A stretch of DNA of 64,000 nt from Botryllus schlosseri (Eukaryota), in assembly GCA_051294905.1 (NCBI GenBank), contig CM119372.1:32056001-32120000 (forward strand), read 5' to 3'. Shown one piece after another: positions 1 to 32,383 of this stretch; position 1 is the first letter of the stretch; every line of letters starts with the position of its first letter. The translations under genes were made by a program, and so were the position numbers. The notes under the pieces are model-generated. The model ran no database searches. It was not told the DNA's origin and saw nothing but the letters and a program-made list of their open reading frames with translations.

Positions 1-241
1 GTATGGTCTTGAAAATACCCAATTATCATTAATTTGATGTAGAACTTTCGTTATATTCTTTGTGGTCGAATATTCCGAGATCTACTCATCAACGCTAGCT
101 AGTCACGAACACAGACAATGCTTTGAGATGTTTTTATCTAGCATTCTGTAAGTCCATAATTGCATGGGTTGGCGGATCTTTCAGTCTGATCAGGAACATA
201 CATATTCTCTTTGATGTATCAGAAAATTTAGCTCTACTTAC

Positions 242-346
242 GAACACAGAGGCCGTTAGATCTGCTGTATCCTCTCTCGCAAACGCACTCTCCGTCATCG
301 CAATCTTCGTTTTCTCCACAGTCGCTGTCTCCGCGACACCCATCGA
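242..346 (-). CDS. EGF/EB-like exon 10 (LDGCRGDSDCGENEDCDDGECVCERGYSRSNGLCV)
   Basis: 105 nt, TTTCAG/GTAAGT, phase 1-1; no stop, so the gene continues off the window. Confidence 0.9.
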
Positions 347-3300
347 CTGAAATATTATATTTTCAGAGAACACTCGTCAACGCTAGCATGCCAAGAAGTC
401 GCAAACACAATGATGTGTAATTTGTTGATCTAATACAGTGGCTCTTGGCACCTTGGTATCAGCGTTTGGCCGTTTGGAAGGGGACGGAAACGCTTAGGGG
501 GCGCTAGGGGGCGCTCGGACACCATGGGGCGATGAGAAAAAGTCGTGTAGCAGTAAAAGGTGTAGTAGTTCTAATATGGATATATACTATATAGTCCTAT
601 ATATTCCTGAATTCTCGTTACAAATTTACTTTCGACAAAAAACGTCCAAATTTTTCGTCGAATTCGCACAAAATATACTGACTATGCATGCAGTATGTTT
701 CCACGAATGTGTGATTGTCAAAATACGTGTAAAATGCGGGTTACGTGCTTCATGCGCGTACTTTCAGGTCACAAAGTCTGCAAGTCCACATGCACTTCCA
801 TCACACTAGATAGGGGGTTTCTCGACAAAATGCTTCGAACTTGGTATTGTATCAAAATCTGGCAAAGGGGCACAATGCCACTTCTGAGAGTGAGAGCCCG
901 TTATACAATGCATGCTTTGAAGCATTCTCGACAAAATGATAGACTAAACACAATACCAAACCTTCTATTTGAGAGCTACAAAATTAAATTGACTTTATCT
1001 TTCATCATCGTACCATAAAGAATGATTCTGTTTAGCGTTTCGGCCCACAAAACCTTACATGCACGCTATAAAATAAACGTTGCTTTGTTTGGAGTATATG
1101 CAATTATGCATGGCTAATTCTCGAACAATAGGTGCAGTAGGCTATTACCTCGATTTTACCGATGTAAATTCAGTGTGAGCATTGGTCAATACCACATTTT
1201 CAGTTGATTTCCTATTCACATAAGAAGCAATAAAACAAAACCCAATGCTGCAATACATCAATTGCAGAAGTGAAATCGTGGTGTGTGCAGGCGCTCGAAT
1301 CATTATGGTATGAGCCTGTATCCTACATTTGTTATAACAACTTTGATTTGATCCCGAAAATAATACGTTATATTATTAGATCGTTAATTAGCAGAGATGA
1401 GCATGGATTAGAATTAGGATTAGAAAAAAACGGATTTGTGAAATTTTGTCGGATTAGGATTAGATTCGGATTCAAGATTTTTTCTGAACGGATTAGGATT
1501 TGGATTGGATTTGCCGATTTTCTGGGAGATAGATATGTCGTGTGGCGAATGGCGACAAACTTTATTCAGATCAATTACACAGATCAACAAAATGAAAAAA
1601 AATTCTAGGCAGAACATCTGAGAGCCGTTTCTGGGGTGTTTGAGGTTGCTGATTCCGAATATCACGTTAGCTTTGTCAGATTGGCTCTTTGTGAGGAGAT
1701 ATGTATAATTGTATATACCCATAAAAAAGCCCAAAATTACTGTATTCACCCTTAAATATTTCACTTGGTAGGAAGAAAATTGTAGTTTTTTCTAATTTTA
1801 TACTGCGCATAAATGGATAATTGACTATGAAGAACCCTCATGTCGTTCTCAGTCATTCTATCAATATTAACATGACATGATGCGAAATATTTGTTTGTCA
1901 TAAAAGCAGTTTGTGAAGCCTAAAAATTGTACTTTTTCACAACGGAAATACATATTCTCCTCTATCAGTCGGCCATTTTCCCATGATTAATGAGGAGTAA
2001 AAAACAATAAAATTTTTCCTTCAAAAGCTTAACTACTATACTCATATGTGTCACATTTCTTTTGACTGGTAAATGGATAATTTTCCACTGAGTCAACAAA
2101 GTGGGTATACCTAGTTAGTAACCCTTTTAAACGAGAAGATAAAATCTGGTATATGGTATATTCGAATACCGATGAAAGATTCCAATTTCACATTGGGAAG
2201 GAGCTCACTGCATGTAATTTCTCCTAAGATGTAGTAAATGAAACTTTTTAGATGATCACAAAGCACCAAACTTCAAACAGTTGGTCCGAAAATTCGTATC
2301 TGCATATCGAAAACTTGAGCACAAACATGAGCATAAAAGTTCACGTCCTGTTCAGTCATCTTGATATATTTCCTGATCATCTTGTTGATTACCTATAGGG
2401 GAGAGGTTCTACCAAGACATCAGAACAACAAAAGAAAAATATCACGGCAGATGAGATAAAAAATTGAACATATTATGGCAGACCATTGCCGGAACCTTTC
2501 GAGAAACTGCCCTAAATTGCTTACAGGCGAAAATCGTACAAAAAACAATTGTGTCTTAAAATAAATTATTCATATTATATTCTAACTGATTATTTCAAAT
2601 TTACAATAGGTGGTTGACGTAAAACCGATTGAATTAATGTCACGTTATTTGATAATCTAGGTAAATAGTTATATACATGGCGGGAGTTTATTTATGCACG
2701 TACATGATACCCGTGAAAGTCTGTAACTATGATAAATCTATTACCCCAAATATAGTGCTGTTGCTATATTTTGATTTAAAAGGGTCTTCTGTGCGTAAAA
2801 ATTACAAGTAGATTGAATTTCTAAAGTTTAAGTACGACTGAGCCAATTTTATATCTAGTCATTTGGTCAAAATAGCCCCATGAGTTATCTCCACAACAAG
2901 AGCCAATTTGAAAAAAACTAAGGTCATATTCGAAATCAGTGCCCTTCCGAAGCCCCCAAACAACTCTTACTTTGTCTGCCTAAAAATATGTGTTGACCAA
3001 TCTTATTAATGTAGGTATAGTATACTACACCATGGTACATTCGGTGCCGATGAACATGAGAGGTGCAGCCCTATGCCAAGTTATCTTGAATCAACAGAAT
3101 TGTTGGTTGTGAAAGAAAAATTTCCAATTACCTCAAATTTTCTGAAATTCAAGTTAGAACCGGATTGGTATTAAACACGGATTTGAATATACAAAGGTTC
3201 TGGATTAGGATTTGGATTAGGCTTTGAAGCTTAGGATTTGGATTGGATTAGGACACATAAATTCCAAATCAGCTCATCTCTGTTAATTAGTCGAGCGGTC

Positions 3301-6300
3301 GTCAGACGCAATTCAAGCTCGTCATATTTACAACAGTACAGTTCAATCCCATTAAGACCGACCAGATTACGACCTCTACCCATAGTGTTTAATACTACGC
3401 TTAAAATATATGGGGGGGGGGGGCAGACTATGAAAATTTCTGAAAATGGGTGCTGGCGGGAGAAGGTTCAGGACCACTGATCTAACACTTTGTTAGTCAG
3501 TTCATTCAAATCAAAAAGCTATCTATTCGATATTTTGCATTATCAATTTCAGTATCTACTTACGAACACAGCGACCGTTAGATCGGCTATATCCTTTCTC
3601 GCAAACACATTCTCTGTCATCGCAATCTTCGTTTTCTCCGCAATCGCTGTCACTACGACACCCATCCACTAAAGTACAATATCGTCAAAGAGCGCTCGTC
3701 AACGGAAGCAAGTCACAAGATCTCGAACGCAATGTCAGATTTGTATATATAGCTGTTGATTCGTCGAAGTGCATGGGTTGGCGGACATCCGACGAAGAAG
3801 TTATATTTTTTATATTATGAGTCATGAAATTCGGCATCTACTTACAAACACAGCGGCCGTCAGATCTGATATATCCTCTCTCGCAAACACAGTCACCGTT
3901 TTCGCAATCTTCATTTTGTCCGCAGTCGCTGTCTCTACGACACCCATTCACTAAAATATGATAACTTCATAACAACGCTTGTCACACGGTATAATCAAAT
4001 AAATGGCTATTAAAAACCCCAATTTATCTTTAATTTGCCATAGAACTGTCACTATATTCTTTTCAGTCGCATAGAAAGTACATAATTGAGCTTCATTCAC
4101 ACTGTTGTGACGCTAATGAGTGATACCCGACTCTTATAACCTAATACTCGGTTCCCGATTGTGCCTAGCCCTACACAACAAGTATATAGCTATAGCGACG
4201 GATTCGTGAACTGAAAATAAACAAAGCTGTGGGATTTGTAAATCTAACATTCTACTATAGTCTTACGGTTACCATATTTTGGAATCGGGAAAGCAGGACA
4301 CTTTCATCACATCTTAAAAGTTAGTTTACCGAAATTGAAAACAGCTGATTTGGAAATATTTGCTGGAAATCTTGTTATGTTGACTAACAAAAGATGTCCT
4401 CACGCTGACTCGATTCCCTAATTACCAACTTTTTTCCGATACTTCTGTGGTGTTGACTAGAAATAAAAAAAATAAAAAAGTTATCAATCTGACTCGACTC
4501 CCTAATTACCCACTTTTTAACGATATTTCTGTGGTGTTGGATAAAAAGAATAAAAAAATAGGTCACCACTCTGACTCGTATAGCCTAATAAGGATTTCCA
4601 CGTCTCACACCCCCCCCCCCATGCTATCCCGATAATGCTTGGCGCCAAGCAGGGAAGCCATGGATAACGCTGTTACTAAAAAGGTCTTAGTCTGACCCGG
4701 CAGGGGATTGAGTCCACGACCTACCAATCAAGAAGCTGGACGCTCCGACACTACGCTATCTTGCCGGCCAATAAGAAGACAGCTATTCGATATAATGCGT
4801 CATTATCATCACACGCGTGGTGAGATATCGTAGTGGTATAATCCTCAGCTACAACACCGATGCATTGTGGGTTCGAGTCCGACCGAGGGCCACTCCAGAA
4901 TTCCTGCCTAAGTGTTGGAGGTTTATCTAGGCCCCTCCTCGCCACCTCATCCGCGTAAGCGGTGTCTTACAAAAAGCTTCGAAGTGAGCCGTGCTATAAG
5001 TCGGCAGTTACGGAAAACATGAAGAATATCGGCCTGGTGTAGATGACCATAGTAGTCGACAAACACCATAAATATCACAAACAACAACAACAATCATCAC
5101 ATGCAGTATCAACTTACGAACACAGCGGCCATTAGATCTGCTATATCCTCTCTCGCAGACGCATTCTCCGTCTTCGCATTCTTCGTTTTCACCGCAGTCT
5201 CTGTCTCCACGACACCCGTCGACTGCAAGATGATATATTCAAAGAACGCTCGCCAATAGGGCTAAGAACAGTGATCCGAATCGAGTGTTAATTATAACAA
5301 TTCGAGTGAGGTATAGTGAGAACTGATTTATTTCAGCCGCTAAATTATGCGCTGATTGTCAATATGACTTTAACATATCGACGATATCGATTTTATACCA
5401 TTTCCACAACTGAAGGCCGTAAGGCCAAAATCCTTGTATCGCAGCATAATACGAGACATCTAGTCCAAACACACGCACATTTGTTGGAATGACATATCAG
5501 TGAAGTTTCGATCATCAATCCGCAGCGTTGTCACAAAGTTCAACCAAATAGGTATGGTCTCAAAATACCAAATTATACTTAATTTGATGTAGGACTTGGA
5601 TTATATTACTTGTGGTCACATAATAAATGTTCGATATTTGAACTTTTCAAATCATTCATACTGTGGTGACGTCATCATGAATGATATTTGCAACATGATT
5701 GATAACCTATTTTGTAATTTTCTAAGCTACAGGGAAATCATAATCCAGTTTTGCTTCATAACTACGAAAAATCCAGGACTTGCATTAACGGAAGGGCCTT
5801 CTGAGATGAAATATCCTATACAGTGCACTATAATTTAGCTAAATTGGAAGCAAAAGTTATTTAGATTCCGCGTGCGCCATAACATTCAGCATATCCACTT
5901 ACGAACGCAGCGGCCGTTAGATCTGCTATATCCTCTCTCACAAACACAATCTCCGTTTTTGCATACTTCGTTTTGTCCGCAGTCGCTGTTTCGGCGACAC
6001 CCGTCCACTAAAATATGATATTTTAAAGACCGCCACTCAACGATAGCTAGCCATGAAATGGAGAATATAATGCTATGAGATTAATCCATCCAACATTCCC
6101 TAAGTCTTTACAAATGCATGCTCAAATTCGATGAAAAAGATATCTCTTATATATTATGCGTCGTAAAATGCGGGTTGTACTTACGAACGCAGCGACCGTT
6201 AGATCTGCTATATCCTGTCTCGCAAACACAGTCTCCATTTACGCAGTCTTCGTTTTGTCCGCAGTCGCTGTTTCTACGACATCCATCCACTAAAATATTA

Positions 6301-9300
6301 TGTATTCACGCTAATCAACAGAGCTGGTCAGAACGATTCGAGTAATCGAATCGAGTAGTGATTCTAATATTTCCAGCCGAGCATTAGTGAAACATGATTT
6401 ATTTGAGTTCTGACATTGTACGCTCATTTCCCGAGATAATTTAGCAGCGATAATTATACGTTTGATGCAATTTTTCGCCGTGGAAGGCCTATGCGCTATA
6501 TAGTTCACCAATTCGTCAGCACATTCAGCGAGATTTGTTTATATAGCATTCACTTGGTGTATAATTGAATGGATTATCGGAACTCTATCCTAGATCATGC
6601 GTTTATAAAATCCTGCATCTACTTACGAACGCAGCGGCCGCTAGATCTGACATATCCTCTCCCGCAAACACAGTCTCCGTTGTTGCAAACTTCGTTTTGT
6701 CTGCAGTCGCTGTTTCTACGACATCCATCTACTAAAATATGATATCTTCAAGGAACGCTCGTCAACGCTAGCTAGCCGTGAAGACTCGGACACACCGCTG
6801 AGAGATTTGTTTATCTAACATTCTATTATACTATTTTTGCTTGGGTTGGCGGTCATTTCAGTCCAATGAAGAACATATCAATTCTATATATATATAACAG
6901 TAACACCATGTCGACTGTTGTTCAGTGCTAGATTGTAAATTAAGTTGTACATACCTAATATTGATGTACAAATTCCCACCTATGTGGACTTCAATATACT
7001 CGAACTATCAGTTGGCCTATCCGTGTCCATTATTTATTTGTATTTATCGTCTGAACTATGATGCAAAATAATCTATGTGGAGTACATCTACTGGAAATTG
7101 CAGAATTCAAGCATTTTACGAAGGACCCAATGTATCCAATATGTGAATTCTTTGACATGTGCTTGTAAGTTATCATCTTTAAGCTATTTAGTAAAACAGA
7201 CATATAATTGAATGCATATAAAGTGCGAAGTTGTTTTCTAACTCTCATTATTGAGAAACATGAAGGCATATTTAGGTCGTCGCTCCAGTTTGTTTGTCTG
7301 TTTTGTGGCAGTTGTGGTGTTTGTCGACTACTATGGTCATTGGTCATTTACACCAGGCCGATATTACTCATTTTTATTCCGTAACTGCCGACTTGTAGCA
7401 GGGTTTTTTGTAAGACACCGCTTACACGGATGCGATGGCGAGTAGGAGCCTAGATATACCCCCAACACTTAGGTAGGAATTTTGGAGTCGAACCCGCAAC
7501 CCATTGGTGTTGCAGCTGTTGATTATACCATTACGCTATCTCGCCATAGCTCGTTCCAGTGAAAAAGTTTATTGAAAACTATTTCCGTCCATTTACTTTC
7601 ATTTAACTCTTTACGTCATCACATTAAGTGCAAAGAAGGTACACGCCCTACAGGCCTACATGCTAGAGGTTCATAAAGTAGGGTTCCGAACCAGTATCGG
7701 GGGGGGGGGGTCTGTGAGAAGTCGATGTTTAAATACATCATCATTCCGCCATCAGACAATCTGCTTCTCTAGATGTAAAACATTTTTCCAAATTACACGG
7801 TTTCACTGATTCAATTGTAAGGCTGCTTAAAAACGCTACGCGCGAATTTTGGCTCAATGCCGACCGGTAGAAGCCGCTCAAATCCAAATTTAACTTTTGA
7901 CTACTTTATTATTATTAGTATTTACGGAAAAATTCATTCACTACGCCATGACCCAACATCGTGTTACAGAAACCCATAAAGTGAAGGTGACGACGTAATC
8001 ACGAGATGTTATCTTGAGATTGACCTGTGATAGCGTTTGAATAAATGAATTGCCATTAATAAAAAAACAGTAATGAATATGATTGGCTGGAGATTCAACT
8101 ACTTTATTGATATAGCCTAGTTAAAACGACGGTGATATAACTGGCAAATGAAGTATACATTACCCACTGAAAGTGGTGATCGCTAAGAGGTTATAAACCA
8201 ACAGGCAGGTAAAATACAGATAAATATATTTCCCATACGATAGTCGATATCCGCATATAGTTATCCTTATTTTCGGTAATGAGACCGTGATTAGGACTGG
8301 ACGAAAATGAAGACCTCTTATGTTCATTTCCTTTCACATCACTCAATATGTCATGCCATTCAGGACATAGTGAAGGGGTGGGCAAACTTTTGAGCTCGCG
8401 GGCCGCATACAACATCTGAATTCATTTGCGGGCCGCACTTATAAAATTGGGATTATCAACCAAAACGCAATATTGGTATTTGATTATATGTGATGACATA
8501 GAGATATGCTTATTGAAACCAAACCAAACATTGCTTTGATGATATCGTACACGCGTCAGAAACAGTGGCAAGATTTCATAGGCTGGTCGACCTCAATAAC
8601 CAATTTGTCAAAACTATAGAAATGAATGTCGGTTGTCCCGATTCTTGGAACAGGATTGAAATTTGAATCTGTGAGCAGCGATCTGTTCATATATTTACTA
8701 ATTCCACTTTGGGTACAGTTCCAGGACACACATTGCTGACAGCATCGTAACCATGTTAGCTTCAAACACGCTTCTTCTACTATATGTAGATAAAATATTA
8801 ATACCCTAATTCTACGCATACAGAGAACGAAGCCACGCGCGAATCGTTTTTATAAGCACATCAGTGAAATAATGATAACTGGAGTGGGCAATCTGAAATC
8901 ACACTCGTAATCCGAATTATGTCAATCTCGTTTATCATTTGTGTGATGTTTAGCTGTTGAAACCTTTTAAACTGCGCGGGCCTTGAGATCGGGTTGTCGC
9001 GCCAGAAATTGAACATAAAAGTATTTACCTTACAACAGTGGTTCTCAAACTTTTTAAGACACGCCCCCCCCCGTATGATGGTGAAAGATTTCGACCCCCT
9101 CCCCTTATCGTCCCATCACAAAACGTAACCAGGTTGCTAGAATACGGATAGTTTGATGGCTTGGAAGGTTACGACTGTGGACGAGAGATTTCTAAATATG
9201 AAATTTAGACTAAATACAGAGCAACAATAATGAATTGTATATAAATCGCGCGGAGCGCGAAAAAAGTATTCAGTTGAGCTCAGCTTCGCGCCCTCTTCAG

Positions 9301-12300
9301 ATGCTTTCACACCCCAAAGCACTCAGTATGACAACTACCGCCATAGAATTATCATGATGGAATATACCAAGAAAAAGTTTAATCAAGTCTCTGCATTAAT
9401 TCGATTCAAGTACACATTTTATCAATATTTTTAAAATGTTTCTTCAGATTCTCGCGGGCCACACAGAACGCCGTTGCGGGCCGAATGCGGCCCGCGGACC
9501 ATAGTTTGGCCACCACTGACATAGTGGGTGTATGCCCAGTTTGATATTTAGAACTTAGGATTGATATACAATAGTCCAAGGTATATCTTACCAATACATT
9601 GACCATTGACGCGGATGAACCCATCTCTGCAAAGACATTGGCGGTTTCTGCAGAATGAATTAGCACCACACGTGCTACACGGATCTGCGAACAAAACTCA
9701 GCGTAAGAAGTATTGCATGGGTGATATCGATCTATCTATAAGATGTAACACATATGTTATTTATAGGCGATGATTCATGATCAGAATTAGTGGCGGCTGA
9801 GTAAATTTATGTTCACTCCACTGAGTTAATTTATGTTCACTCCGAATTGTGAATCAACAAAATGAACTGTCATTCTTGTCGAACAATTAAAGACTCAACG
9901 TTTGATACAGCTGCCGGACCATCACCGTGGCCAGTTTAATGATCTCATATGCGTTGGCTACCACCTCAACGGGCTACAATAGTACACTGCGTTACACTTC
10001 TAATAATTGCTCAAGTATAGTTTTGTTAACATATCATAATCACTTAAACATTAAATGGACAGGTTCAATTCAATATTATTGATGTCCAAATATCCATATT
10101 CATTTGTGATATCATATTCATGAGTCATGATGACTTACGCAGCGTTAATCATTAAAAAATATTTTTTTATTCGGGTGGAACGTCGGAAATTACAACATTC
10201 AAATATTTGTCGAAGTTTACCAAGGTCTAATAGGGGCATAAGTGTATAAGTCTTGAAATGACGGCAAGGTATCGTCAAACAGCTTTTTTTTTATAAGATG
10301 ACGTATAGTTGAATACATATAAAACACATCGGGCTTTACCGCAGCTTCTTTTTGAAAATCACAAATGTATATTTCAGTCTTCGTTCCAGTGAGAAACTTT
10401 TATTTATGACTTTCACGAGCCATTTCCGATCACATAACTCATTACGTTACCATATGTAGTAGCCTACGTAGAAGGTACAGGGCTAATAAGGATGGTGTGA
10501 ACGCGAGGTTCACGTTCGCGTTCTGTGTGTGAACCTCAGAAATTTAGAGGTTCGCGTTCACAAAGGAACTTTGGTAAATTCTGCACTATGAATCTTTTTC
10601 ATATATAACAATTTCACACGTCAATATAACATCTTTGGTTGAAATTTCTTGCATTTCAACTTCGGACAATTCTATGCATGGCACTGGCAGCATAAAAAAT
10701 CAACACTAACCGAGCATGCACCTTGCCAATCTCAAATATTTTACTTACTTTGTTACAAAGGCTTGCTCGTTTCCTCGTTTGTCAATATTTAGTGACTCTC
10801 TGATGTGAGCTTGACCCGCAATTACACATCATCGAGAACGAAATACACTACATGTAGGTAGTCAGCGAATGATGCTTATTCAACCAATCAATGGAATTGA
10901 TATAAAGAATACATCGTTTTCTAATATAAAAAATCTAACAGCCGTACGGAATCCATCTTGATTTAATTTCTTTATTGTATAATAAAACAATTGTATCATA
11001 ATAGAAACCCGTTTTACACTCTGCTCAACATCATTGTAGCAATAGTGAGAATCCGAATACATTGCCTGGTCTGGCCTAGACAGTTAATACATGAGCCTAT
11101 AATATGTTCCAAGTCCTCGTCAAAATTATTGGCAAAGTGACGGAAGATATTGATATTAGAGAAATATTAGAGCATTTCATTGCTGCAGTTCATACATTTG
11201 GTGACGATTAAAAAGTCAGCATGTACTTCAGCATTGTGGCATAATGTGGCCTGAGTCGTCGCTAGATATCATGTATATTAATAAATCACTTCACTGAAAT
11301 GCACTGAAATCGCGTTCGCGTTCACATATAACCTTTCAAAAAAATTCGCGTTCATGCGAACCTGAACCTTTCAGGGGTTCGCACCGTCCCCAGTAAATGC
11401 CCTCTCTATTTTCACAGTTGTGTAGATTTACAACACTACAAGAGAAGCCTTACCAACACATCGATTGTTTTTGCGGAAGAACCCGTCTCTGCAAACACAT
11501 TGGCGGTTCTTGCAGATTGAATTGGCTCCACACGATTTACATGGGTCTGTAAATATAATTCAGCGTGAGAAATAATGCATGGGCGACATCGAAGTATAAG
11601 TTGATTGATTGATTATTGGGAATATAATTCAGCCTATGAAATGAAGCACAGGCGAAATTGTTCTTCCAGACGGAAATATGGTCTTGATTAGCTAAGCGAA
11701 GATTGATGATAAAGCTATGTGACTGAATGCCTTCCCCATATGGATATCCCTCTCAACTCCAAGAACCTTCGACGTCGTGTCGACAGTCGACACATTGATA
11801 GTCATACTTTACGCACCGTCGTCCACGTTTTGCAAGAGCATGCAGAACCTCAATTTGAATATATCATTGATACCGTAATCATATCCAAATGTTTGGTAAT
11901 CTTGGGCGAATAACGGAAGCAAACAGTCTATCAAATCATTATCGTTTAATTGGAGATCTCCGCCTGGCCATGTCGCGGTCACATTGGAATTTCGACACCA
12001 TGAAAACCGCGTGCTACTCGCATAATACTTACTAAGGCATTCGTTCTTGAAAAGGAAGAATGGAAACTTGCAAATGCATTTCCCTAAAATGCATTTTCCA
12101 CCACTGCAGTTCCGGCACCGTTTACCTAAATAATGAAGTACTGATTATATTAGAGGTTCTTAACTCGAGGGTTGCTCCGACGACTTTCGAAGGGCGCGAA
12201 TCCTGGCGTGCTTTACAACTTAATCTCATCTCAAAACTCACACGCATATCACGCTATAATGTAAGTATTTATGTACAGAATCACGTCACTGAAGCTAGAA

Positions 12301-15300
12301 TTCGACACTAATCAAGTTCATTTGGTCGTAAAAACATGCACGTTTATCCGTGAAGGCTTGGTGACGAAGAGAAGGCAGGTTATAACCCCGGTTCCGGTTA
12401 CACAGACAGTGTGAAAAAGAAAGCAAATTAATCGAACGTGCCACTATCGGTGTCAAACAAATCGCCTATGTCGACATATGTCGATGTCAATCACTTAGTA
12501 TCAGGAACGATATTAGTCACCATGGACGTATCATCCCTGTATACAAGTATTCCTCATAAGGATGGCATGGAGGCTGTGGAGAGATCTCTTGCAGAAATTG
12601 GACATCCTTTAAAGAAAAGCATCATGGAACTTATCGGCTTCACGTTAACTCACAACACGTTCGAATTCAACGAAGAGATCTTTCTACAGCTTCAAGGAAC
12701 GGCAATGGGCACGAAATTTGCTCCGCAATACGCAAATCTTTTCATGCATCATTTTGAGGAGGATTTCATGGAGACACAAACATTGCGGCCAATATTTTAT
12801 ACGAGATACATCGACGACATTTTCATGATATGGACCCATGGAGAACAGTCACTGAAAAAGTTTCATGATTCAATAAACGACTTTCACCCTAACATTCGTC
12901 TGACCATGGAGAGCTCGATGACTGCAGTTTCATTCCTCGACACGCTTGTCAACATCGAAGAAGGTCGCATTTTCACGTCACTCTACCGTAAACCAACGGA
13001 CTCTGGTAAGATTTTAAACTACCACAGTTTCCATCCAGTACACTGTAAAAAAGGAATAGTCTACAGCAAAGCCCTTCGAATCCATAAAATTTGCTCGAAG
13101 AAAGAGGACAAAAATGAACATTTGGAAGTTTTGAAACACGAACTAATCAAATCTGGCTACGATCAACAGCTGATAAGGAATCAAATAAAAAGGGCCCTCA
13201 ATGTACCACGAGAGAAGCTCCTTGATTGCAGTCGAAATGAGGAAACACAAGATCGCAGAGTGCCGCTGGTCACTACATATTTCCCGGGAGCAGAAAAGAT
13301 CCGTAAAATTTTACGAAAACATCAGCGAATACTAATCAACGATCCGAAATGCAATGAAGTATTCCCGAGAAGACCTATTTTAGCCATCCGGCAACCACGC
13401 AACTTGCGTAACATTTTGGTAAATAGTAGGCTACCTCGGTCAAGACGAGAAAATGGCGTGGAAAATTGCGGACAGCCATCATGCAAGACGTGTGCTATTC
13501 TCAATCACAGCACCGTGATTACAAGAGGACCCGCCCGGCACAACATCAAAGGCCATTTTACTTGTAAATCAAGTAATGTCGTATATTTGATTCGCTGTCG
13601 AAAAGGATGTACGAATGCATGGTACGTAGGAGAAACCAGTCAACCTCTCCACAAGAGAGTAAATGGTCACCGACATGATATCTCGAAAGGTAACAAATCG
13701 AAGCCTGTCGGTGATCATTTTTCTTCCGCTGGGCACTCGGAGAGCGACATGACTATCAATGTATTGGTCGGGAACATGGAAGACGCTACTCTCCGCAAGG
13801 CTACAGAACAAAAATATATCGACAAATTTGATACTTTCCGACAAGGGCTGAATATAGATAGAGGATGTATGTCTCACTACACCATGAATGCTTGACTTAA
13901 CAAATTTTGTTCCTTTCAAATTAGCATATAAACACCTTATCCAATCCGATTTTAGGCACACAACTCACTATTTGCATTTCAAATCAAAACTTGATATTTG
14001 TGTCTATGACGTCATAGAGTACGCGACTTCAGTATCTAGAATTTCTCATTCCCTATGATGTCATAATATGCATATGTTCAAATTGAAAATATTTTTGCGT
14101 TGCTCTTTTTGCGTTACTTTCGCTTTGACACCTGATGAAGGAGCAGCGCTCCGAAAGCTCGTGTAACTAATAAAGTTATATTCATTCGCAAGTGGACGTT
14201 AAATAGAGTGTGAAAGCTACTAAGGTCTTACGTTTATATATATCGTCTGCTATCGGCGCAACCAAGTATTCAACTATGGATCACACCAGAAAATGCCGAA
14301 TTAAAGTGGAAAGAATCGCCAAGAAGATTGCTCGCAAAAACGCTGATATTTTTTTTCTATTGGAATGTAAAAAGCGCGACCTCATCCCGAAGGGTCTACG
14401 AATTCAAAACCCACTACGCAACACTTTCAAGACCACGTACTCAGAAAACTTGGCTCGGCGAATGTCGAAGAAATTGATGTCACATCTGACTGATATTCAC
14501 TATCGAAGCCGAGCAAAGTTCAGGTACGATATTGAAGGCACCATAAATCTAGTTGATGATCGCAAATTACAAGGAGATTTGCGTGAATTGGCTAAACAAA
14601 TTTCGACAAACGAAGTCAAAGGTATGATACTTCAAAAAGAGAAAAAAATCACGCAATTGGTAATGGAAAAGGAAAAATCCGAAATTTCACTGCCACCGGG
14701 CGCCACAGCTAAAAGTAATAAATCGGATATAGCCGTTGCTAACCTGTCTAGCAAAACCTTGACGCAGTCTCAAATCGATGTTCTCAGTCTTAATTTGAAA
14801 TTCTGCCCTACTCAAAAACTAGATCCTTACGTGTTAGCTGGAGACGCCGATGAATTCGACAGAAGAATGAGGAACAAGTACCATTTTTACGATGTCAATC
14901 CGGAAATTGAAGCTTCTCAGAATGGAAACGAGATAACTGAACAAATTATTAACAAGAAGCCCAAGAAAAACATAAGATGGAGGGCACCTCAGGGCGAAAA
15001 CAACAATTTGGACAAATATCTAGAAAGTTTCCACAACCAAATTAACGCTACATTCATTAGTAAGTCGAAACACCTCAACAGAAACTACAACGAAAATCTT
15101 ACGAAGGAGCAGAAAAAGGCAATCACAGAACTCAAACAGGAAGAGAGCATCGTAATCAAGCCTGCTGATAAAGGAGGAAAAGTAGTCGTCATGGACCTGA
15201 AAGACTATTTAGAAGAAGGCTACAGACAGTTGAACGACTCCGTGTCGTATCAGAAACTATATTGTGACCCAACGAAAGAACACACGAAACGATTAAAGAA

Positions 15301-18047
15301 AATTATAAAATCCTTGGATATGGAAGAAGACGAGAAATCAAAGATCAATATCCCGTCTGATCCCTCTCTTGGCCGCTTCTATCTTCTACCGAAGCTGCAC
15401 AAAGAGAATATTCCTGGACGCCCCATCGTGTCATGCAACAAAACTATAACGGAAGACATATCTGGATACGTGGAAAAACACCTTAAACCGTTGGTGAAAA
15501 GCACACCAAGTTTTTGTCGTGACACCACGGACTTTTTGAACAAACTCATGAATGTCAATCACTTAGTATCAGGAACGATATTAGTCACCATGGACGTATC
15601 ATCCCTGTATACAAGTATTCCTCATAAGGATGGCATGGAGGCTGTGGAGAGATCTCTTGCAGAAATTGGACATCCTTTAAAGAAAAGCATCATGGAACTT
15701 ATCGGCTTCACGTTAACTCACAACACGTTCGAATTCAACGAAGAGATCTTTCTACAGCTTCAAGGAACGGCAATGGGCACGAAATTTGCTCCGCAATACG
15801 CAAATCTTTTCATGCATCATTTTGAGGAGGATTTCATGGAGACACAAACATTGCGGCCAATATTTTATACGAGATACATCGACGACATTTTCATGATATG
15901 GACCCATGGAGAACAGTCACTGAAAAAGTTTCATGATTCAATAAACGACTTTCACCCTAACATTCGTCTGACCATGGAGAGCTCGATGACTGCAGTTTCA
16001 TTCCTCGACACGCTTGTCAACATCGAAGAAGGTCGCATTTTCACGTCACTCTACCGTAAACCAACGGACTCTGGTAAGATTTTAAACTACCACAGTTTCC
16101 ATCCAGTACACTGTAAAAAAGGAATAGTCTACAGCAAAGCCCTTCGAATCCATAAAATTTGCTCGAAGAAAGAGGACAAAAATGAACATTTGGAAGTTTT
16201 GAAACACGAACTAATCAAATCTGGCTACGATCAACAGCTGATAAGGAATCAAATAAAAAGGGCCCTCAATGTACCACGAGAGAAGCTCCTTGATTGCAGT
16301 CGAAATGAGGAAACACAAGATCGCAGAGTGCCGCTGGTCACTACATATTTCCCGGGAGCAGAAAAGATCCGTAAAATTTTACGAAAACATCAGCGAATAC
16401 TAATCAACGATCCGAAATGCAATGAAGTATTCCCGAGAAGACCTATTTTAGCCATCCGGCAACCACGCAACTTGCGTAACATTTTGGTAAATAGTAGGCT
16501 ACCTCGGTCAAGACGAGAAAATGGCGTGGAAAATTGCGGACAGCCATCATGCAAGACGTGTGCTATTCTCAATCACAGCACCGTGATTACAAGAGGACCC
16601 GCCCGGCACAACATCAAAGGCCATTTTACTTGTAAATCAAGTAATGTCGTATATTTGATTCGCTGTCGAAAAGGATGTACGAATGCATGGTACGTAGGAG
16701 AAACCAGTCAACCTCTCCACAAGAGAGTAAATGGTCACCGACATGATATCTCGAAAGGTAACAAATCGAAGCCTGTCGGTGATCATTTTTCTTCCGCTGG
16801 GCACTCGGAGAGCGACATGACTATCAATGTATTGGTCGGGAACATGGAAGACGCTACTCTCCGCAAGGCTACAGAACAAAAATATATCGACAAATTTGAT
16901 ACTTTCCGACAAGGGCTGAATATAGATAGAGGATGTATGTCTCACTACACCATGAATGCTTGACTTAACAAATTTTGTTCCTTTCAAATTAGCATATAAA
17001 CACCTTATCCAATCCGATTTTAGGCACACAACTCACTATTTGCATTTCAAATCAAAACTTGATATTTGTGTCTATGACGTCATAGAGTACGCGACTTCAG
17101 TATCTAGAATTTCTCATTCCCTATGATGTCATAATATGCATATGTTCAAATTGAAAATATTTTTGCGTTGCTCTTTTTGCGTTACTTTCGCTTTGACACC
17201 TGATGAAGGAGCAGCGCTCCGAAAGCTCGTGTAACTAATAAAGTTATATTCATTCGCAAGTGGACGTTAAATAGAGTGTGAAAGCTACTAAGGTCTTACG
17301 TTGACATATATAGGGTTACCATATTTCGGAATAGGAAAAGGAGGAAACTTATTTCAAATCATAAAAGTTAGTTTACCGAAATTGAAAACAGCTGACTTTG
17401 AAATATTTATTGGAAATCTTGTTGTGTTAACTAAAAAAATTATTTTTTCCGATCTGACTCCCGCGTATCCTGTCGTCTATGTTTTAGCCCAAAATATAAC
17501 GTCTTTCGTGGTCTTTTGGGGCATTTCAGGCTAAAAATGGAGGACAAATTTTCAACAAGAAGGACAATTGGGCGAAGGGAGGACAATTATTCTAATATGA
17601 GGACAAATCCTATACTATAGGAGGACGTATGATAGCCATAGACATATAGTCTTCCGCATGGTCTCATACTGCGCAAACCGAAGAAGTGGTAGTAACGGTA
17701 TATCAATCGTAGATACATGTTTCGCTCTACGTATAGTAATACTGCTTTTAATCCATGCAAATTACCAATCTATTGGCAATTTTTCAATCTTCAGCGACAC
17801 GGAACATATTACCTATAAGAAGAATGTGGTATGGAGGGTCAAGCTCGTTGTTTGCATTCAGGTATTCGGAGCTTCATTCAATCTCTGAGAGCCCGAAGCT
17901 TAGGTCACGATACATCAGCTTATACATTAGAGTCTGATCAGATCGTGTACGAATACATATTGTTAACATCTTACCGAAAATCGAGAAAAACGTCGCCTGG
18001 GACACCGACACCAATGCAACTAAAAGGAGTAATCTTGCCACCAACAT
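242..18047 (-). CDS. Spliced gene for a secreted tandem EGF/EB-like repeat protein (11 coding exons in window; 3' part continues beyond position 1)
   Basis: Exons read by hand, all with canonical AG/GT and phase 1-1: 17975-18047, 12033-12125, 11454-11546, 9592-9684, 6627-6731, 6185-6289, 5903-6007, 5118-5222, 3846-3950, 3564-3668, 242-346. The spliced frame is open: MLVARLLLLVALVSVSQATFFSIF-GKRCRNCSGGKCILGKCICKFPFFLFKNECL-NPCKSCGANSICKNRQCVCRDGFFRKNNRCV-DPCSTCGANSFCRNRQCLCRDGFIRVNGQCI-VDGCRRNSDCRQNEVCNNGDCVCGRGYVRSSGRCV-... Not visible in the ORF track. Confidence 0.88.
1392..3282. mobile_element. hAT-type MITE with subterminal GGATT(A/T/C)G repeats
   Basis: TIR CAGAGATGAGC...GCTCATCTCTG; perfect 8-bp TSD TTAATTAG (1384-1391, 3283-3290). 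Confidence 0.85.
1578..3002 (+). mobile_element. Internally deleted Chapaev3-like (CMC superfamily) DNA transposon
   Basis: Starts CAC, TTA on both sides (1575-1577, 3003-3005); decayed transposase pieces (KIVLFHNGNTYSPLSVGH; MSIKVHVLFSHLDIFPDHL; GERF-like); colinear with 20732-20933 plus 23839-25046. Confidence 0.7.
3564..3668 (-). CDS. EGF/EB-like exon 9 (LDGCRSDSDCGENEDCDDRECVCEKGYSRSNGRCV)
   Basis: 105 nt, AG/GTAAGT, phase 1-1. Confidence 0.9.
3846..3950 (-). CDS. EGF/EB-like exon 8 (LNGCRRDSDCGQNEDCENGDCVCERGYIRSDGRCV)
   Basis: 105 nt, AG/GTAAGT, phase 1-1. Confidence 0.9.
4625..4769 (-). mobile_element. tRNA-derived SINE fragment (second family)
   Basis: Minus strand GGCCGGCAAGATAGCGTAGTG...GGTCGTGGACTCAATCCC resembles pol III A and B boxes. 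Confidence 0.5.
4817..5092 (+). mobile_element. tRNA-derived SINE, about 275 bp, (ACA)n tail
   Basis: A-box-like TATCGTAGTGG, B box GGTTCGAGTCC, CAA tail, 12-bp TSD ATCATCACA(C/T)GC; further copies at 7285-7546 (-), 44760-45036 (+) and about 40975-41106. Confidence 0.85.
5118..5222 (-). CDS. EGF/EB-like exon 7 (LDGCRGDRDCGENEECEDGECVCERGYSRSNGRCV)
   Basis: 105 nt, TTGCAG/GTAAGT, phase 1-1. Confidence 0.9.
5903..6007 (-). CDS. EGF/EB-like exon 6 (LDGCRRNSDCGQNEVCKNGDCVCERGYSRSNGRCV)
   Basis: 105 nt, AG/GTAAGT, phase 1-1. Confidence 0.9.
6185..6289 (-). CDS. EGF/EB-like exon 5 (LDGCRRNSDCGQNEDCVNGDCVCETGYSRSNGRCV)
   Basis: 105 nt, AG/GTAAGT, phase 1-1. Confidence 0.9.
6627..6731 (-). CDS. 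EGF/EB-like exon 4 (VDGCRRNSDCRQNEVCNNGDCVCGRGYVRSSGRCV)
   Basis: 105 nt, TTTTAG acceptor, GTAAGT donor, phase 1-1. Confidence 0.9.
7285..7546 (-). mobile_element. tRNA-derived SINE (same family as 4817-5092)
   Basis: Reverse-complement similarity over the tRNA-like head, body and tail. Confidence 0.8.
8373..9518. mobile_element. Non-autonomous hAT (Charlie-like) element
   Basis: Subterminal GCGGGCCG motifs; perfect 8-bp TSD ACATAGTG (8365-8372, 9519-9526). Confidence 0.8.
9592..9684 (-). CDS. EGF-like exon 3 (DPCSTCGANSFCRNRQCLCRDGFIRVNGQCI)
   Basis: 93 nt, TCGCAG acceptor, GTAAGA donor; paralogous to 11454-11546 including flanking intron sequence. Confidence 0.9.
10487..11392 (-). mobile_element. 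MITE family with TAGGGATGGTGTGAAC termini and GTTCGC repeats (copy without the hammerhead insert)
   Basis: Inverted copy of 21326-22441; another copy starts at 43138. Confidence 0.75.
11454..11546 (-). CDS. EGF-like exon 2 (NPCKSCGANSICKNRQCVCRDGFFRKNNRCV)
   Basis: 93 nt, TTACAG acceptor, GTAAGG donor, phase 1-1. Confidence 0.9.
12033..12125 (-). CDS. EGF-like exon 1 (GKRCRNCSGGKCILGKCICKFPFFLFKNECL)
   Basis: 93 nt, TTTAG acceptor, GTAAGT donor, phase 1-1, six Cys. Confidence 0.85.
12484..13895 (+). pseudogene. 5'-truncated upstream copy of the Penelope ORF (C-terminal RT + GIY-YIG)
   Basis: Translation identical to the last ~470 aa of the full ORF; the first 16 codons of the tracked ORF lie in host flank. 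Confidence 0.92.
14127..14165 (+). ncRNA. Minimal type I hammerhead ribozyme (Penelope terminal repeat copy 1)
   Basis: ACAC-CTGATGA-A-GGAGC(AGC)GCTCC-GAAA-GC-TC-GTGT: full catalytic core, stem I ACAC/GTGT, 5-bp stem II, palindromic AGCT replacing stem III; AATAAA follows at 14169-14174. Confidence 0.9.
14276..16963 (+). CDS. Penelope-like RT-GIY-YIG protein, 895 aa from the first ATG, intact
   Basis: PLE motifs IKPADKG, LPKLHK, GRPIVS, MDVSSLYT, GTAMG, RYIDD, FLD, YRKPT; Cys-rich linker CGQPSCKTC; endonuclease VVY...YVGET...R...H...E...GLN. The ORF-track start at 14210 is a GTG; the first ATG is 14276. Confidence 0.96.
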   Translation: MDHTRKCRIKVERIAKKIARKNADIFFLLECKKRDLIPKGLRIQNPLRNTFKTTYSENLARRMSKKLMSHLTDIHYRSRAKFRYDIEGTINLVDDRKLQGDLRELAKQISTNEVKGMILQKEKKITQLVMEKEKSEISLPPGATAKSNKSDIAVANLSSKTLTQSQIDVLSLNLKFCPTQKLDPYVLAGDADEFDRRMRNKYHFYDVNPEIEASQNGNEITEQIINKKPKKNIRWRAPQGENNNLDKYLESFHNQINATFISKSKHLNRNYNENLTKEQKKAITELKQEESIVIKPADKGGKVVVMDLKDYLEEGYRQLNDSVSYQKLYCDPTKEHTKRLKKIIKSLDMEEDEKSKINIPSDPSLGRFYLLPKLHKENIPGRPIVSCNKTITEDISGYVEKHLKPLVKSTPSFCRDTTDFLNKLMNVNHLVSGTILVTMDVSSLYTSIPHKDGMEAVERSLAEIGHPLKKSIMELIGFTLTHNTFEFNEEIFLQLQGTAMGTKFAPQYANLFMHHFEEDFMETQTLRPIFYTRYIDDIFMIWTHGEQSLKKFHDSINDFHPNIRLTMESSMTAVSFLDTLVNIEEGRIFTSLYRKPTDSGKILNYHSFHPVHCKKGIVYSKALRIHKICSKKEDKNEHLEVLKHELIKSGYDQQLIRNQIKRALNVPREKLLDCSRNEETQDRRVPLVTTYFPGAEKIRKILRKHQRILINDPKCNEVFPRRPILAIRQPRNLRNILVNSRLPRSRRENGVENCGQPSCKTCAILNHSTVITRGPARHNIKGHFTCKSSNVVYLIRCRKGCTNAWYVGETSQPLHKRVNGHRHDISKGNKSKPVGDHFSSAGHSESDMTINVLVGNMEDATLRKATEQKYIDKFDTFRQGLNIDRGCMSHYTMNA
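17195..17233 (+). ncRNA. Minimal type I hammerhead ribozyme (Penelope terminal repeat copy 2)
   Basis: Identical to 14127-14165, 3068 nt downstream. Confidence 0.9.
17311..17640. mobile_element. hAT-type MITE (TAGGGTTACCATA termini, GAGGACA repeats)
   Basis: 8-bp TSD GACATATA (17303-17310, 17641-17648); related sequence at about 4265-4400 and 43520-43620. Confidence 0.8.
17975..18047 (-). CDS. First coding exon: signal peptide MLVARLLLLVALVSVSQA-TFFSIF
   Basis: ATG at 18047-18045 (context AAAATG), basic residue, hydrophobic core and SQA cleavage-like site; phase-1 donor GTAAGA at 17974-17969; acceptor TTTAG ending at 18079 upstream. Confidence 0.8.
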
Positions 18048-18181
18048 TTTGCGTTCGATATTTCGAATTCTTTGCCCGCTAAATTTAATATTTGAATCTG
18101 TAAATAAGCATGGTGCCTAGTGCTTTTATAGAGGGATGCGATAATCCTTCAAGTCGCACATATGCGCGACTGACCACTTAC

Positions 18182-20388: not shown

Positions 20389-21325
20389 GTGTAAATGGTT
20401 CTTATCGATCAAGTGCATCCATTGAATCCATTCCAGAGCTAGGCATGAATAGGTAACGAAATAGGCTTTGTCTCCGTTCAGCCGAAACCGCAATAAACAA
20501 TTTCTACTTGTGATATTTTGGCGAATTCAAATTTTTTAAGCCTGCTCAGGTGCAGGGATTCGGCGTCACACAACGAATACTCACCAAAAAGTTTCTGCTG
20601 CCAGCAGACTGATGTCATAGAGATGGTCAAAATACACTGGTACGGTCATCTTTAGGAAGTATGTAGGCTAGTATTCGTGATCGAAGTTGCTTCATATAGT
20701 TATATGTCACGACTCTCACCTAAGAATATAACACCGGTCAATAAAATGAAAACAAATTTTTAGGTAGAACATATTAGAGCCGTTTCTGGAGTTTTTTAGG
20801 TTGCTGATTACGAATATCATATTAGTTTTGTCAGATTGGCTTATTGTCAGAAGATATTTATACCCCTAAAAAGCCTAAAATTACTGGACTTACCCTTAAA
20901 TATTTCACTTGATAGGAAGAAAACGGTAGTTTTCAAAGTAGTGGGCGTACTTACTCGTATAGACGTAAAATTCGTACGCTAAATCTCATCTAAATCACAA
21001 AGTAAGTAGCGATTACCAACGCCAGTCGAAACTACATAATGCGGCTGTAGAAAATGGAAGTACTCAAGTAAGCATTTTAGTTGTAACTTGCGGATGCTTT
21101 GTAGTCAATCGTAAAAAGGCTGATGTTGAAATTGCAAGATAAATATTCGCTACGAACACAAATTGATTAAAGGCCACCGCAAATGGGTGGCATTTTCGAA
21201 GGTATGTTTAGTTACTCTGCTAAAGTAGCTATTTCTCACGATTGTTATGTTAATGACTCGCATGAAAGTGATCCAAATCTAACCCAATGCAATTACTACT
21301 TTTTAAAATATCATGGTGTAAACAC

Positions 21326-22441: not shown

Positions 22442-23102
22442 GTAAATACTGTAAAAAGTAAATAGTTTCACCTAAAAACTATATAATATAAGCGGAAGTA
22501 ACCGAAACAAAGCCGTTTGTGTGGTCCGTGGACATATGATCAATGAAAAGGCGACATAATAGCATGAAACGCTTGGGCATGCGACATTTGTGCATTCGTC
22601 AAGTGAACAAGTGTGGGTTAAATTGCAGGTTAGGGTTGGGCACTGTCATTTCGTAAATGTATTTTACTCAAAAACTACAAAATATCAGGTAATTGATTTT
22701 CCAGAAAGGTTCCGAAATCGTGACATCGCAGCTGTACATTTCGACATTTCGTCTATGCGGAACAGCACTACGCATACTTACCAATTTCCGAAATTGTTCA
22801 GATCTCCATAATTAAAACATTTCAGTTTGGCGTGTACTGAGAAAAATCAAACAAATATTTCCGAGCATGACACGTGCTCGACGATAAGCATCGTCGTTTC
22901 GGATTCATTTTATCGACCCATTATTTTCTAATAAACGGGTTAAATATGCATGTTTACCCGCGAGTATACCGACATGTAACATGATAATTCTACTTGAAAC
23001 TTTGGTCAATACCTGATCTCATGTCATGTGTATGATCCCATAATTTCGCCGCAATGTCCATGTAATTCGGGTTTCGCATCGATTGCCGACATTCACATAT
23101 TA

Positions 23103-26936: not shown

Positions 26937-26970
26937 TCCCCTGACGAGGGTCAGCCGAAAAGCTTCGGGA
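26937..26970 (+). ncRNA. Minimal hammerhead motif, second family (copy 2)
   Basis: Identical to 21525-21558. Confidence 0.72.
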
Positions 26971-32349: not shown

Positions 32350-32383
32350 TCCCCTGACGAGGGTCAGCCGAAAAGCTTCGGGA
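32350..32383 (+). ncRNA. Minimal hammerhead motif, second family (copy 3)
   Basis: Identical to 21525-21558. Confidence 0.72.

What the first reader, a model, noticed from the sequence alone, without database searches (positions are those of the whole stretch)
242..18047. Hidden secreted protein built from at least 10 one-exon-one-module EGF/EB-like repeats
Seen: a signal-peptide exon and ten 93- or 105-nt phase-1 exons splice into one open frame with invariant Cys spacing (C-x5-C-x5-C-x4-C-x-C-x10-C in the 105-nt type). The ORF track misses it. Known: phase 1-1 symmetry is typical of shuffled EGF-class modules. Inference: a lineage-specific extracellular matrix, adhesive or immune-type protein; I do not recognise an orthologue.
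Basis: partly seen in the sequence, partly recalled or inferred. Interest (0 to 1): 0.72.

Follow-up and report, generated by a model that had tools for sequence, protein, structure and literature searches.

The report
Secreted EGF-repeat protein, one-module exons
This is a real, spliced animal gene (probably of a sea squirt) for a protein made of a string of tiny EGF-like modules, one per exon, most likely a secreted matrix or cell-adhesion protein; the design is common, though this protein has no known counterpart and its job is untested.

Summary
Confirmed. Ten minus-strand exons (three 93-nt, seven 105-nt; all AG/GTAAG, phase 1-1, six Cys) and a 73-nt signal-type first exon join into a stop-free 362-residue frame. 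RNA shows 7 of 9 predicted module junctions in up to 3 of 4 runs, and a further module beyond position 1. Correction: exon 5903-6007 is missing from the transcripts seen in all three expressing runs (skipped, or absent from their alleles), although it looks intact and constrained. The signal-exon junction was not tested. The modules are minimal EGF-like units, not full EB modules: they match only the C-terminal part of Pfam EB, below cut-off. The same module type occurs in Styela clava EGF+TIL proteins, but also in a bacterial and unnamed proteins; no orthologue was found. Two modules carry RGD (probably one origin; 7% chance per module) and charge runs from +6 to -7 along the chain. Best reading: a secreted disulfide-rich rod of the matrix or adhesive class, possibly an integrin ligand; C-terminus unknown. 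The scan has no look-alike note on other DNA. New member of a known kind.

The parts
18124..18130 (-). TATA-like box (TATAAAA) about 80 nt upstream of the ATG
   Evidence: consensus match only
17975..18047 (-). Probable first coding exon: ATG, hydrophobic signal-peptide-like 24 codons, phase-1 GTAAG donor, no AG acceptor directly upstream
   Evidence: 9-residue hydropathy 2.5-3.2 over the first eight windows; of 3 hydrophobic ATG/phase-1 candidates on this strand between 12125 and 64000 it is the only one with a TATA box and the only one nearer than 49 kb; junction not tested by RNA; SignalP not available
12484..17311 (+). Young Penelope-like retroelement inside intron 1, antisense to the gene: 918-codon RT frame (14207-16963) preceded by a 1760-nt 99.9% identical copy of its 3' part; intron 1 would be 1021 nt without it
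   Evidence: (RVT_1 E 1.9e-12); 'Penelope-like' and the GIY-YIG-like tail are recognised by eye and from memory, Pfam listed only RVT_1
12033..12125 (-). Module 1, 93 nt, Cys spacing 2-4-4-1-10, net charge +6; most diverged, no Pfam match
   Evidence: joint 11546>12033 in X4 and X10 (9 reads); E 3.4e-4 to a profile of 33 short-EGF units from five relatives
11454..11546 (-). Module 2, 93 nt, spacing 2-5-4-1-10, net +6
   Evidence: joints
9592..9684 (-). Module 3, 93 nt, spacing 2-5-4-1-10, net +3
   Evidence: joints (X4 and X10 upstream; X1, X4, X10 downstream)
6627..6731 (-). Module 4, 105 nt, spacing 5-5-4-1-10, net +2
   Evidence: joints in X1, X4, X10
6185..6289 (-). Module 5, 105 nt, net -2; spliced directly to module 7 in the RNA seen
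   Evidence: joint 5222>6185, CT..AC, X1, X4 and X10 (6 reads, 4 starts)
5903..6007 (-). Module 6, 105 nt, net +1; intact, canonical splice sites, 3 private synonymous and 0 private non-synonymous changes, but missing from the transcripts seen
   Evidence: bin depth 0.57 and 0.94 observed, 0.57 and 0.94 expected without this exon, 2.89 and 4.75 with it
5118..5222 (-). Module 7, 105 nt, net -5, RGD between Cys1 and Cys2
   Evidence: joints
3846..3950 (-). Module 8, 105 nt, net -3
   Evidence: two contig variants per run at its joints in X1 and X4
3564..3668 (-). Module 9, 105 nt, net -5; with module 8 forms a two-exon block 75% like the block of modules 5 and 6 (both introns 177 nt)
242..346 (-). 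Module 10, 105 nt, net -7, RGD between Cys1 and Cys2; RNA contigs carry a further close copy next to it, so the gene runs on beyond position 1
   Evidence: joints 346>3564 (X1, X4, X10 6 reads) and 345>241 'goes back 105' (X1, X4)

Best explanation
A functional, spliced gene, probably of a stolidobranch ascidian, for a secreted non-enzymatic protein whose known part is a rod of at least ten minimal EGF-like modules (31-35 residues, three disulfides, two short beta hairpins). It grew by tandem duplication of phase 1-1 exons with their flanking intron, singly and in pairs, so modules can be added, lost or skipped without breaking the frame; module number differs between this genome and the mRNAs seen. 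It most likely works as a structural or adhesive extracellular-matrix strand (tunic, vessel or epidermal matrix): the disulfide-locked modules give length and protease resistance, the basic N-terminal modules could bind polyanionic matrix, and the acidic C-terminal modules display RGD in the exposed Cys1-Cys2 segment as possible integrin sites. Shown: exons, splicing of 7 of 9 junctions, purifying selection, continuation beyond the window, absence of module 6 from the mRNAs seen, charge gradient, RGD. Inferred: first-exon linkage, secretion, EGF disulfide pattern, lineage, matrix role, integrin binding.
For: Exon anatomy and null test. Spliced RNA in 3 of 4 runs from 4 studies (X1 and X4 were picked as holders and their RNA status is the tool's guess, X10 is recorded RNA). 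dN/dS 0.28. Pfam EB partial match in 9 of 10 and EGF_2 in 7 of 10 modules at E<=0.01. AlphaFold model of module 10: pLDDT 92, hairpin at 13-22 plus a short second hairpin; top VIA row is an EGF domain of Pfs25, Z 3.4, rmsd 2.3, 34 of 34 aligned; a tandem relative (P0024) ranks EGF arrays first. Same module type in secreted-looking Styela clava proteins XP_039266246/XP_077966975, XP_077967184, XP_077974245-8 (hhalign probability 91%), two isoforms of which differ by a 50-residue module pair. No Ca-binding or O-glycosylation consensus and no catalytic domain in the part seen. Integrins and RGD-bearing molecules act in ascidian phagocytosis (PMC5465252, passage); EGF-repeat proteins are part of the Oikopleura house (PMC3390340, passages). 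Charge falls from +6 to -7, Spearman -0.96 over ten non-independent modules.
Against: No functional or tissue data. The C-terminus is unseen and could carry a transmembrane, ZP, TIL or lectin part that changes the function. First-exon junction untested. RGD is weak evidence: 7.3% of Cys-fixed shuffles of a module contain it, the two RGD modules are each other's closest copies (88% identical; sister in the tree at 63% support), five of seven 105-nt modules lack it, and the RGDs of Styela P0016 lie in a different loop. RGD peptide injection into Botryllus gave inconsistent results (PMC5541839, passage). Expression is low (2-9 reads per joint in 12.9 million X10 reads; none on the exons in X14), less than expected of a bulk structural protein in those samples. 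Fold scores are low (Z<5) and knottin/TIL rows lie within about 1 Z of the EGF row. Closest single-module matches are about 50% and include non-tunicate proteins. RNA differs from the window by 3-6% in the exons quantified, so it may come from other alleles or a close paralog.
Confidence: 0.45

Rival explanations
1. The array is only the stalk or spacer of a larger mosaic protein whose working head lies beyond position 1: TIL repeats as in the Styela relatives, a ZP domain as in the egg-coat precursors HrVC120 and CiVC57, a lectin domain, or a membrane anchor.
For: The gene continues beyond the window. All Styela relatives found mix these modules with 4-6 TIL stretches.
Against: No TIL exon in the window (TIL profile hits only the EGF exons, best E 9e-4), whereas in the Styela proteins TIL starts within the first 160 residues. 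The modules lack the O-fucose consensus reported for HrVC70 (0 of 10). The first sequence seen beyond the window is another EGF module.
Confidence: 0.25
2. A secreted developmental signal of the Hemps / Ci-meta1 kind, acting in settlement, metamorphosis or budding through a cell-surface receptor.
For: [quoted passage not shown] Low, sample-dependent expression fits a regulated gene.
Against: No sequence comparison with Hemps or Ci-meta1 was possible (no tool returned them; the original paper is not held). No calcium-binding EGF pattern. Recent serial duplication and variable module number suit a scaffold better than a receptor ligand (inference).
Confidence: 0.13
3. A bridging opsonin, DEL-1/MFG-E8-like in function: the basic, aromatic N-terminal modules bind anionic microbial or dying-cell surfaces and the acidic RGD modules engage phagocyte integrins, with the number of modules tuned by splicing or allele.
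For: Charge gradient and RGD placement. DEL-1 carries RGD in an EGF domain and binds phosphatidylserine through another part (PMC11350114, passage). RGD-dependent phagocytosis in ascidians (PMC5465252).
Against: No discoidin domain seen; purifying rather than diversifying selection; RGD within chance expectation; no blood-cell expression data.
Confidence: 0.1
4. The copy in this window is a silent or decaying allele or paralog (disturbed by the fresh 4.8-kb retroelement in intron 1), and the RNA comes from a sister locus with nine modules here.
For: RNA differs by 3-6% in the exons quantified, with shared differences across three studies, and lacks module 6; the one listed run that holds the stretch (X7, kind not recorded) has only 0.21 of the sampled words; the insertion is 99.9% intact.
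Against: All 11 exons, donors and acceptors are intact with no stop; X10 reads match module 10 without the four listed differences and some match the window's letter at 6255; intronic insertions are usually tolerated (general knowledge).
Confidence: 0.07

Closest known systems
Styela clava predicted EGF+TIL proteins: XP_039266246.1 / XP_077966975.1 (LOC120341751), XP_077967184.1 ('zonadhesin-like'), XP_077974245-8.1 (LOC120347030)
   Same: Signal-like N-terminus, then short six-Cys modules of the form C-x(2-5)-C-x(4-5)-C-x4-C-x-C-x(8-11)-C; isoform models that differ by a module pair; one has four RGDs.
   Different: They interleave TIL domains from early on; none in this window. RGD in a different loop. 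About 31% identity over the joined frame, Cys-driven; first exon does not align. Uncharacterised automatic models; orthology not shown.
Pfam EB module (PF01683) and short EGF-like domains (EGF_2 PF07974, MSP1/Pvs28 EGF, teneurin EGF)
   Same: Best Pfam match for 8 of 10 exons, a match for 9 of 10; C-x-C between Cys4 and Cys5; two-hairpin model with EGF domains at the top of fold searches.
   Different: Only EB positions 21-52 or 27-52 of 52 are covered; six Cys instead of the eight recalled for EB; every score is under the curated cut-offs.
Ascidian secreted EGF-repeat proteins Hemps (Herdmania) and Ci-meta1 (Ciona); egg-coat precursors HrVC120 and CiVC57
   Same: Signal peptide plus tandem EGF-like repeats in an ascidian (PMC3760835; PMC9265791; passages).
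   Different: Hemps has only 4 EGF-like repeats plus 3 other Cys repeats; Ci-meta1 has calcium-binding EGFs; VC proteins have ZP domains and O-fucose sites. Sequences could not be compared here.
DEL-1/EDIL3 (and MFG-E8, recalled); mussel EGF-repeat adhesive proteins (Pvfp-5b, PDB 7QAB, rank 19; Mfp-2 recalled)
   Same: RGD displayed on an EGF module (PMC11350114, passage); tandem EGF modules used as an extracellular or adhesive strand.
   Different: No discoidin domains; RGD between Cys1 and Cys2; only one Tyr per 105-nt module and none in the 93-nt modules, so not a DOPA-rich glue.

Membership tests
EGF-like domain superfamily | Six Cys in 30-40 residues with Cys4-x-Cys5 | tested here: met
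   10 of 10 modules
EGF-like domain superfamily | Two-hairpin EGF fold | tested here: inconclusive
   Confident model (pLDDT 92); best VIA row Pfs25 EGF Z 3.4, rmsd 2.3, 34 aligned, but knottin and TIL rows within about 1 Z; Foldseek no E<=0.001; tandem relative P0024 ranks EGF arrays first
EGF-like domain superfamily | Disulfides 1-3, 2-4, 5-6 | not testable with these tools
   The structure tool returns no coordinates or bonds
EGF-like domain superfamily | Encoded by phase 1-1 symmetric exons (typical of shuffled class 1-1 modules, recalled) | tested here: met
   10 of 10 exons; 7 of 9 junctions seen in RNA
Pfam EB module PF01683 | Score at or above the curated cut-off of 24.3 bits | tested here: not met
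   18.3-23.8 bits for 9 exons scanned singly, none for the tenth; the joined protein was not scanned
Pfam EB module PF01683 | Full 52-position module with eight Cys (Cys count recalled) | tested here: not met
   Only profile positions 21-52 or 27-52 matched; six Cys per module
Calcium-binding or O-glycosylated EGF (Notch, fibrillin, Ci-meta1, HrVC70 type) | O-fucose (C2-x4-S/T-C3) or O-glucose (C1-x-S-x-P/A-C2) consensus; EGF_CA match | tested here: not met
   0 of 10 for each consensus; no EGF_CA family listed at E<=1
Styela-type short-EGF + TIL proteins | Short six-Cys module of the same spacing class | tested here: met
   Profile of 33 such units from three Styela proteins and two unnamed relatives hits all 10 exons, E 7.5e-12 to 3.4e-4; next best of 2215 frames E 0.38
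Styela-type short-EGF + TIL proteins | TIL domains in the same chain | tested here: inconclusive
   None in the window; the C-terminal part is unseen
ZP-domain egg-coat precursors (HrVC120, CiVC57) | C-terminal ZP domain; gonad expression | not testable with these tools
   C-terminus outside the window; no genome held; run tissues are coded
Hemps / Ci-meta1 | Sequence homology and larval papilla expression | not testable with these tools
   Sequences not returned by any search; original paper not held
RGD integrin ligands (DEL-1 type) | Exposed RGD that binds integrin | tested here: inconclusive
   RGD in 2 of 10 modules, in the N-terminal coil-to-helix segment of the model; chance 7.3% per module; binding not testable
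Secreted proteins | Cleavable signal peptide on the same transcript and no membrane anchor | tested here: inconclusive

The most novel reading that the evidence does not exclude
A head-to-tail polarised bridging protein built only of minimal EGF modules: a cationic N-terminal end that grips anionic surfaces (tunic polysaccharide, microbes, dying cells) and an expanding anionic end in which an RGD arose in one module and is being multiplied by exon duplication, with length and integrin valency set by exon skipping or allelic copy number. That would be a tunicate solution to the DEL-1/MFG-E8 or fibronectin job, caught while evolving.
Probability: 0.12. Interest if true: 0.62.

Novelty: new member of a known kind. 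Interest (0 to 1): 0.3.

Why it matters
As it stands it adds an unannotated, expressed gene and a clean example of growth by phase 1-1 exon duplication with variable module number. If the RGD modules bind integrins, it would supply a candidate endogenous ligand for the RGD-dependent phagocytosis reported in ascidians, and a small disulfide-locked RGD scaffold. It also points to an unstudied short-EGF(+TIL) family in sea squirts.

Tried and rejected
No whole genome is held, so the C-terminus and paralogs could not be read. Word-indexed homolog searches found nothing useful: module alignment, 217 candidates, none at E<=0.001 (weak evidence); a neighbouring GST exon searched to fix the lineage, 54 candidates, none; P0012 region 385-520, only itself and three weak TIL_2 hits. 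ESM Atlas: best 0.86 for a module and for P0012, leads only. PDB sequence search: best E 0.017. Foldseek of the module: none at E<=0.001. No RNA holder on record was listed (no evidence either way). A bacterial promoter scan of the 5' end does not apply. Chance ORF or artefact: rejected. Full EB module, calcium-binding EGF, DOPA-rich glue: rejected on the features tested. Module 6 as a long-dead pseudo-exon or a fresh haplotype-specific copy: unlikely, as it is only 81-87% like the other modules and has 3 synonymous, 0 non-synonymous private changes (small numbers). RGD in the extra module beyond position 1: my reconstruction from four listed differences kept it, but one search lists differences only away from contig ends and hides 449 rows, so its state is undetermined and I do not count it. 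A 1-72 repeat shared with 4003-4073 and 5552-5622 was considered as a sign of the next exon and dropped, since one copy has no exon beside it. Paper searches found no description of this protein or of the Styela family; subscription journals are largely missing and no supplements were read, so a listing in a proteome or transcriptome table is not excluded.

Full report
Observation. A scan of both strands for AG..GT-bounded, frame-open, Cys-rich exons in all three phases gives ten phase-1 exons on the minus strand between 242 and 12125, three of 93 nt and seven of 105 nt. A six-frame Cys-spacing motif has 9 matches in the 64 kb, all inside these exons, and 0 in each of 20 simulated windows. Every donor is GTAAG, every acceptor ends in AG after an A/T-rich tract; joined to a 73-nt ATG exon at 17975-18047 they read as 362 residues, 60 Cys, without a stop, ending in phase 1 at 242. 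Spacing is 5-5-4-1-10 in all seven long modules and 2-5-4-1-10 or 2-4-4-1-10 in the short ones. None of the ten is a long frame by itself, which is why an ORF track misses them.

Selection and history. The 105-nt exons are 78-88% alike, with pS 0.32 and pN 0.11 (dN/dS about 0.28; 21 non-independent pairs). Flanking intron is still 56-60% alike, and 3548-3969 aligns with 5885-6308 at 75%, a two-exon block with the same 177-nt intron. So the array grew by tandem duplication of exon-plus-intron units, singly and in pairs. The tree of exons with flanks is weakly resolved (44-79% support) but groups the four downstream, acidic modules and pairs the two RGD modules.

RNA. Twenty-four runs were listed; four, from four studies, were laid on 1-12400 at 90% likeness. 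X1 and X4 are assembled contigs chosen as holders (RNA status guessed by the tool); X10 and X14 are recorded RNA, 6% and 13% read. Seven of nine predicted module junctions appear: 11546>12033 (X4, X10 9 reads), 9684>11454 (X4, X10 3 reads from one start), 6731>9592 (X1, X4, X10 2), 6289>6627 (X1, X4, X10 8), 3950>5118 (X1, X4, X10 6), 3668>3846 (X1, X4, X10 1), 346>3564 (X1, X4, X10 6). Five were printed shifted by a few letters; each has the predicted length and GT-AG ends with 1-2 mismatches. X14 shows no joint and no depth in the bins of the 105-nt exons. The two missing junctions both involve 5903-6007; a direct 5222>6185 joint is seen in X1, X4 and X10 (6 reads, 4 starts), and bin depth in X1 and X4 equals that expected with no cover on this exon. 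Three further joints were not shown by the tool, so rare inclusion is not excluded. A 'goes back 105' joint in X1 and X4 shows a further module, with four listed differences over 99 letters from module 10, so the gene runs past position 1. The RNA differs from the window by 3-6% in the exons quantified, so it comes from other alleles or a very close paralog.

First exon. It has an ATG, a hydrophobic core, a phase-1 donor, and TATAAAA about 80 nt upstream. Of three hydrophobic ATG/phase-1 candidates on this strand up to 64000 it is the only one with a TATA box; the others lie at 49 kb, beyond a GST-like gene. The 5849-nt intron shrinks to 1021 nt without a young Penelope-like element at 12484-17311.

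What the modules are. Pfam EB matches 9 of 10 and EGF_2 7 of 10 at E<=0.01, all below cut-off and, for EB, only over positions 21-52 or 27-52 of 52. The AlphaFold model of module 10 (9-row alignment) has pLDDT 92, a short helix and two hairpins. Fold searches are weak at this size: top VIA row Pfs25 EGF, Z 3.4, rmsd 2.3 over 34 residues, with knottin and TIL rows close behind; nothing at E<=0.001 by Foldseek. A relative with several such modules in tandem, P0024, ranks EGF arrays first (Pvs25 E 5.9e-4; EMR2 Z 4.6). No O-fucose or O-glucose consensus in 10 of 10. They are best called minimal EGF-like modules.

Relatives. A profile search of 1.84 billion representatives gave 293 proteins at E<=0.001, 150 listed. 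I looked up 28 different ones. Named ones include a Myxococcota CAP protein (top score), a fish tenascin, nematode EB proteins and three clusters of Styela clava models that mix the same short modules with TIL domains. A profile from 33 such units of five relatives hits all ten exons and nothing else in the window; a TIL profile finds no TIL exon. Best single-module identities among 187 fetched proteins are 11-17 of 30-34 residues and not specific to Styela; the first exon does not align to the Styela N-terminus. So there is a shared module type but no orthologue. Two Styela isoform models differ by a 50-residue module pair, a parallel to the missing module 6. The ascidian assignment rests on these hits and on unchecked earlier notes on this genome; my own test with a neighbouring gene gave nothing.

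Features that bear on function. Net charge runs +6, +6, +3, +2, -2, +1, -5, -3, -5, -7. RGD stands between Cys1 and Cys2 of modules 7 and 10; a shuffled module has it 7.3% of the time and the two are probably one origin. In ascidians integrins and RGD-bearing molecules take part in phagocytosis (PMC5465252, passage), though RGD injections in Botryllus vessels gave inconsistent results (PMC5541839, passage). EGF-repeat proteins occur in the Oikopleura house (PMC3390340, passages), the ascidian egg coat (PMC9265791, passages) and metamorphosis signalling (Hemps, Ci-meta1; PMC3760835, passages; PMC5831862, passages, added nothing). DEL-1 shows an RGD on an EGF module (PMC11350114, passages).

Mechanism and rivals. 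Most likely (0.45) a secreted, disulfide-locked matrix or adhesive strand whose length can change by whole modules, possibly engaging integrins. Rivals: stalk of a mosaic protein with an unseen head (0.25), Hemps-like signal (0.13), bridging opsonin (0.10), silent copy (0.07). The gene's reality (about 0.97) is far more certain than any function.

Novelty. Tandem EGF proteins built from phase 1-1 exons are a textbook kind (recalled). This one is unannotated in the collections searched, and ten paper searches found no account of it or of the Styela family; supplements were not read. The scan's index has no look-alike on other DNA. Verdict: new member of a known kind, interest 0.3; the variable module number, charge polarity and RGD are the points worth following.

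Noticed in passing
window 12484-17311 (+): Very young Penelope-like retroelement with an intact 918-codon RT frame and a 1760-nt 99.9% identical partial copy in front; a short GACATAT-like word lies at both junctions (possible target duplication).
   Followed up: partly
window 20933-35430: A 5.4-kb unit repeated about 2.7 times at 99.8-99.9% identity, ending exactly at the only N gap (35331-35430): a very recent tandem duplication or an assembly artefact. It contains a transposase-like fragment (23396-23764) with no Pfam match.
   Followed up: partly
window 46356-48126 (-): GST-like gene: C-terminal frame matches Pfam GST_C_3 (E 4e-7), a probable N-terminal exon near 47791-48126; no homolog found by the word-indexed search.
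   Followed up: partly
window 49192-51834 (-): Non-LTR retrotransposon with RT, RNase H and a zinc-binding tail, broken into several frames upstream.
   Followed up: no
window 1782-2998, 4817-5090, 7288-7546, 10484-11394: Dispersed repeats fill the gene's long introns; they have copies elsewhere in the window and attract most RNA reads.
   Followed up: no
P0016, P0047/P0171, P0003/P0162 (Styela clava): An unstudied family of secreted-looking short-EGF + TIL repeat proteins; P0016 has RGD in four repeated modules (Cys5-Cys6 loop) where its paralog P0047 has IGD.
   Followed up: partly
P0001, P0002 cluster: The top-scoring carriers of the same module are a Myxococcota protein with a CAP domain and unnamed metagenome proteins; whether by convergence or transfer was not examined.
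   Followed up: no
P0024 (UPI000007B0B4): An unnamed 148-residue fragment with an early UniParc number made of the same modules; it may be an old ascidian cDNA fragment already mentioned in print (guess).
   Followed up: partly
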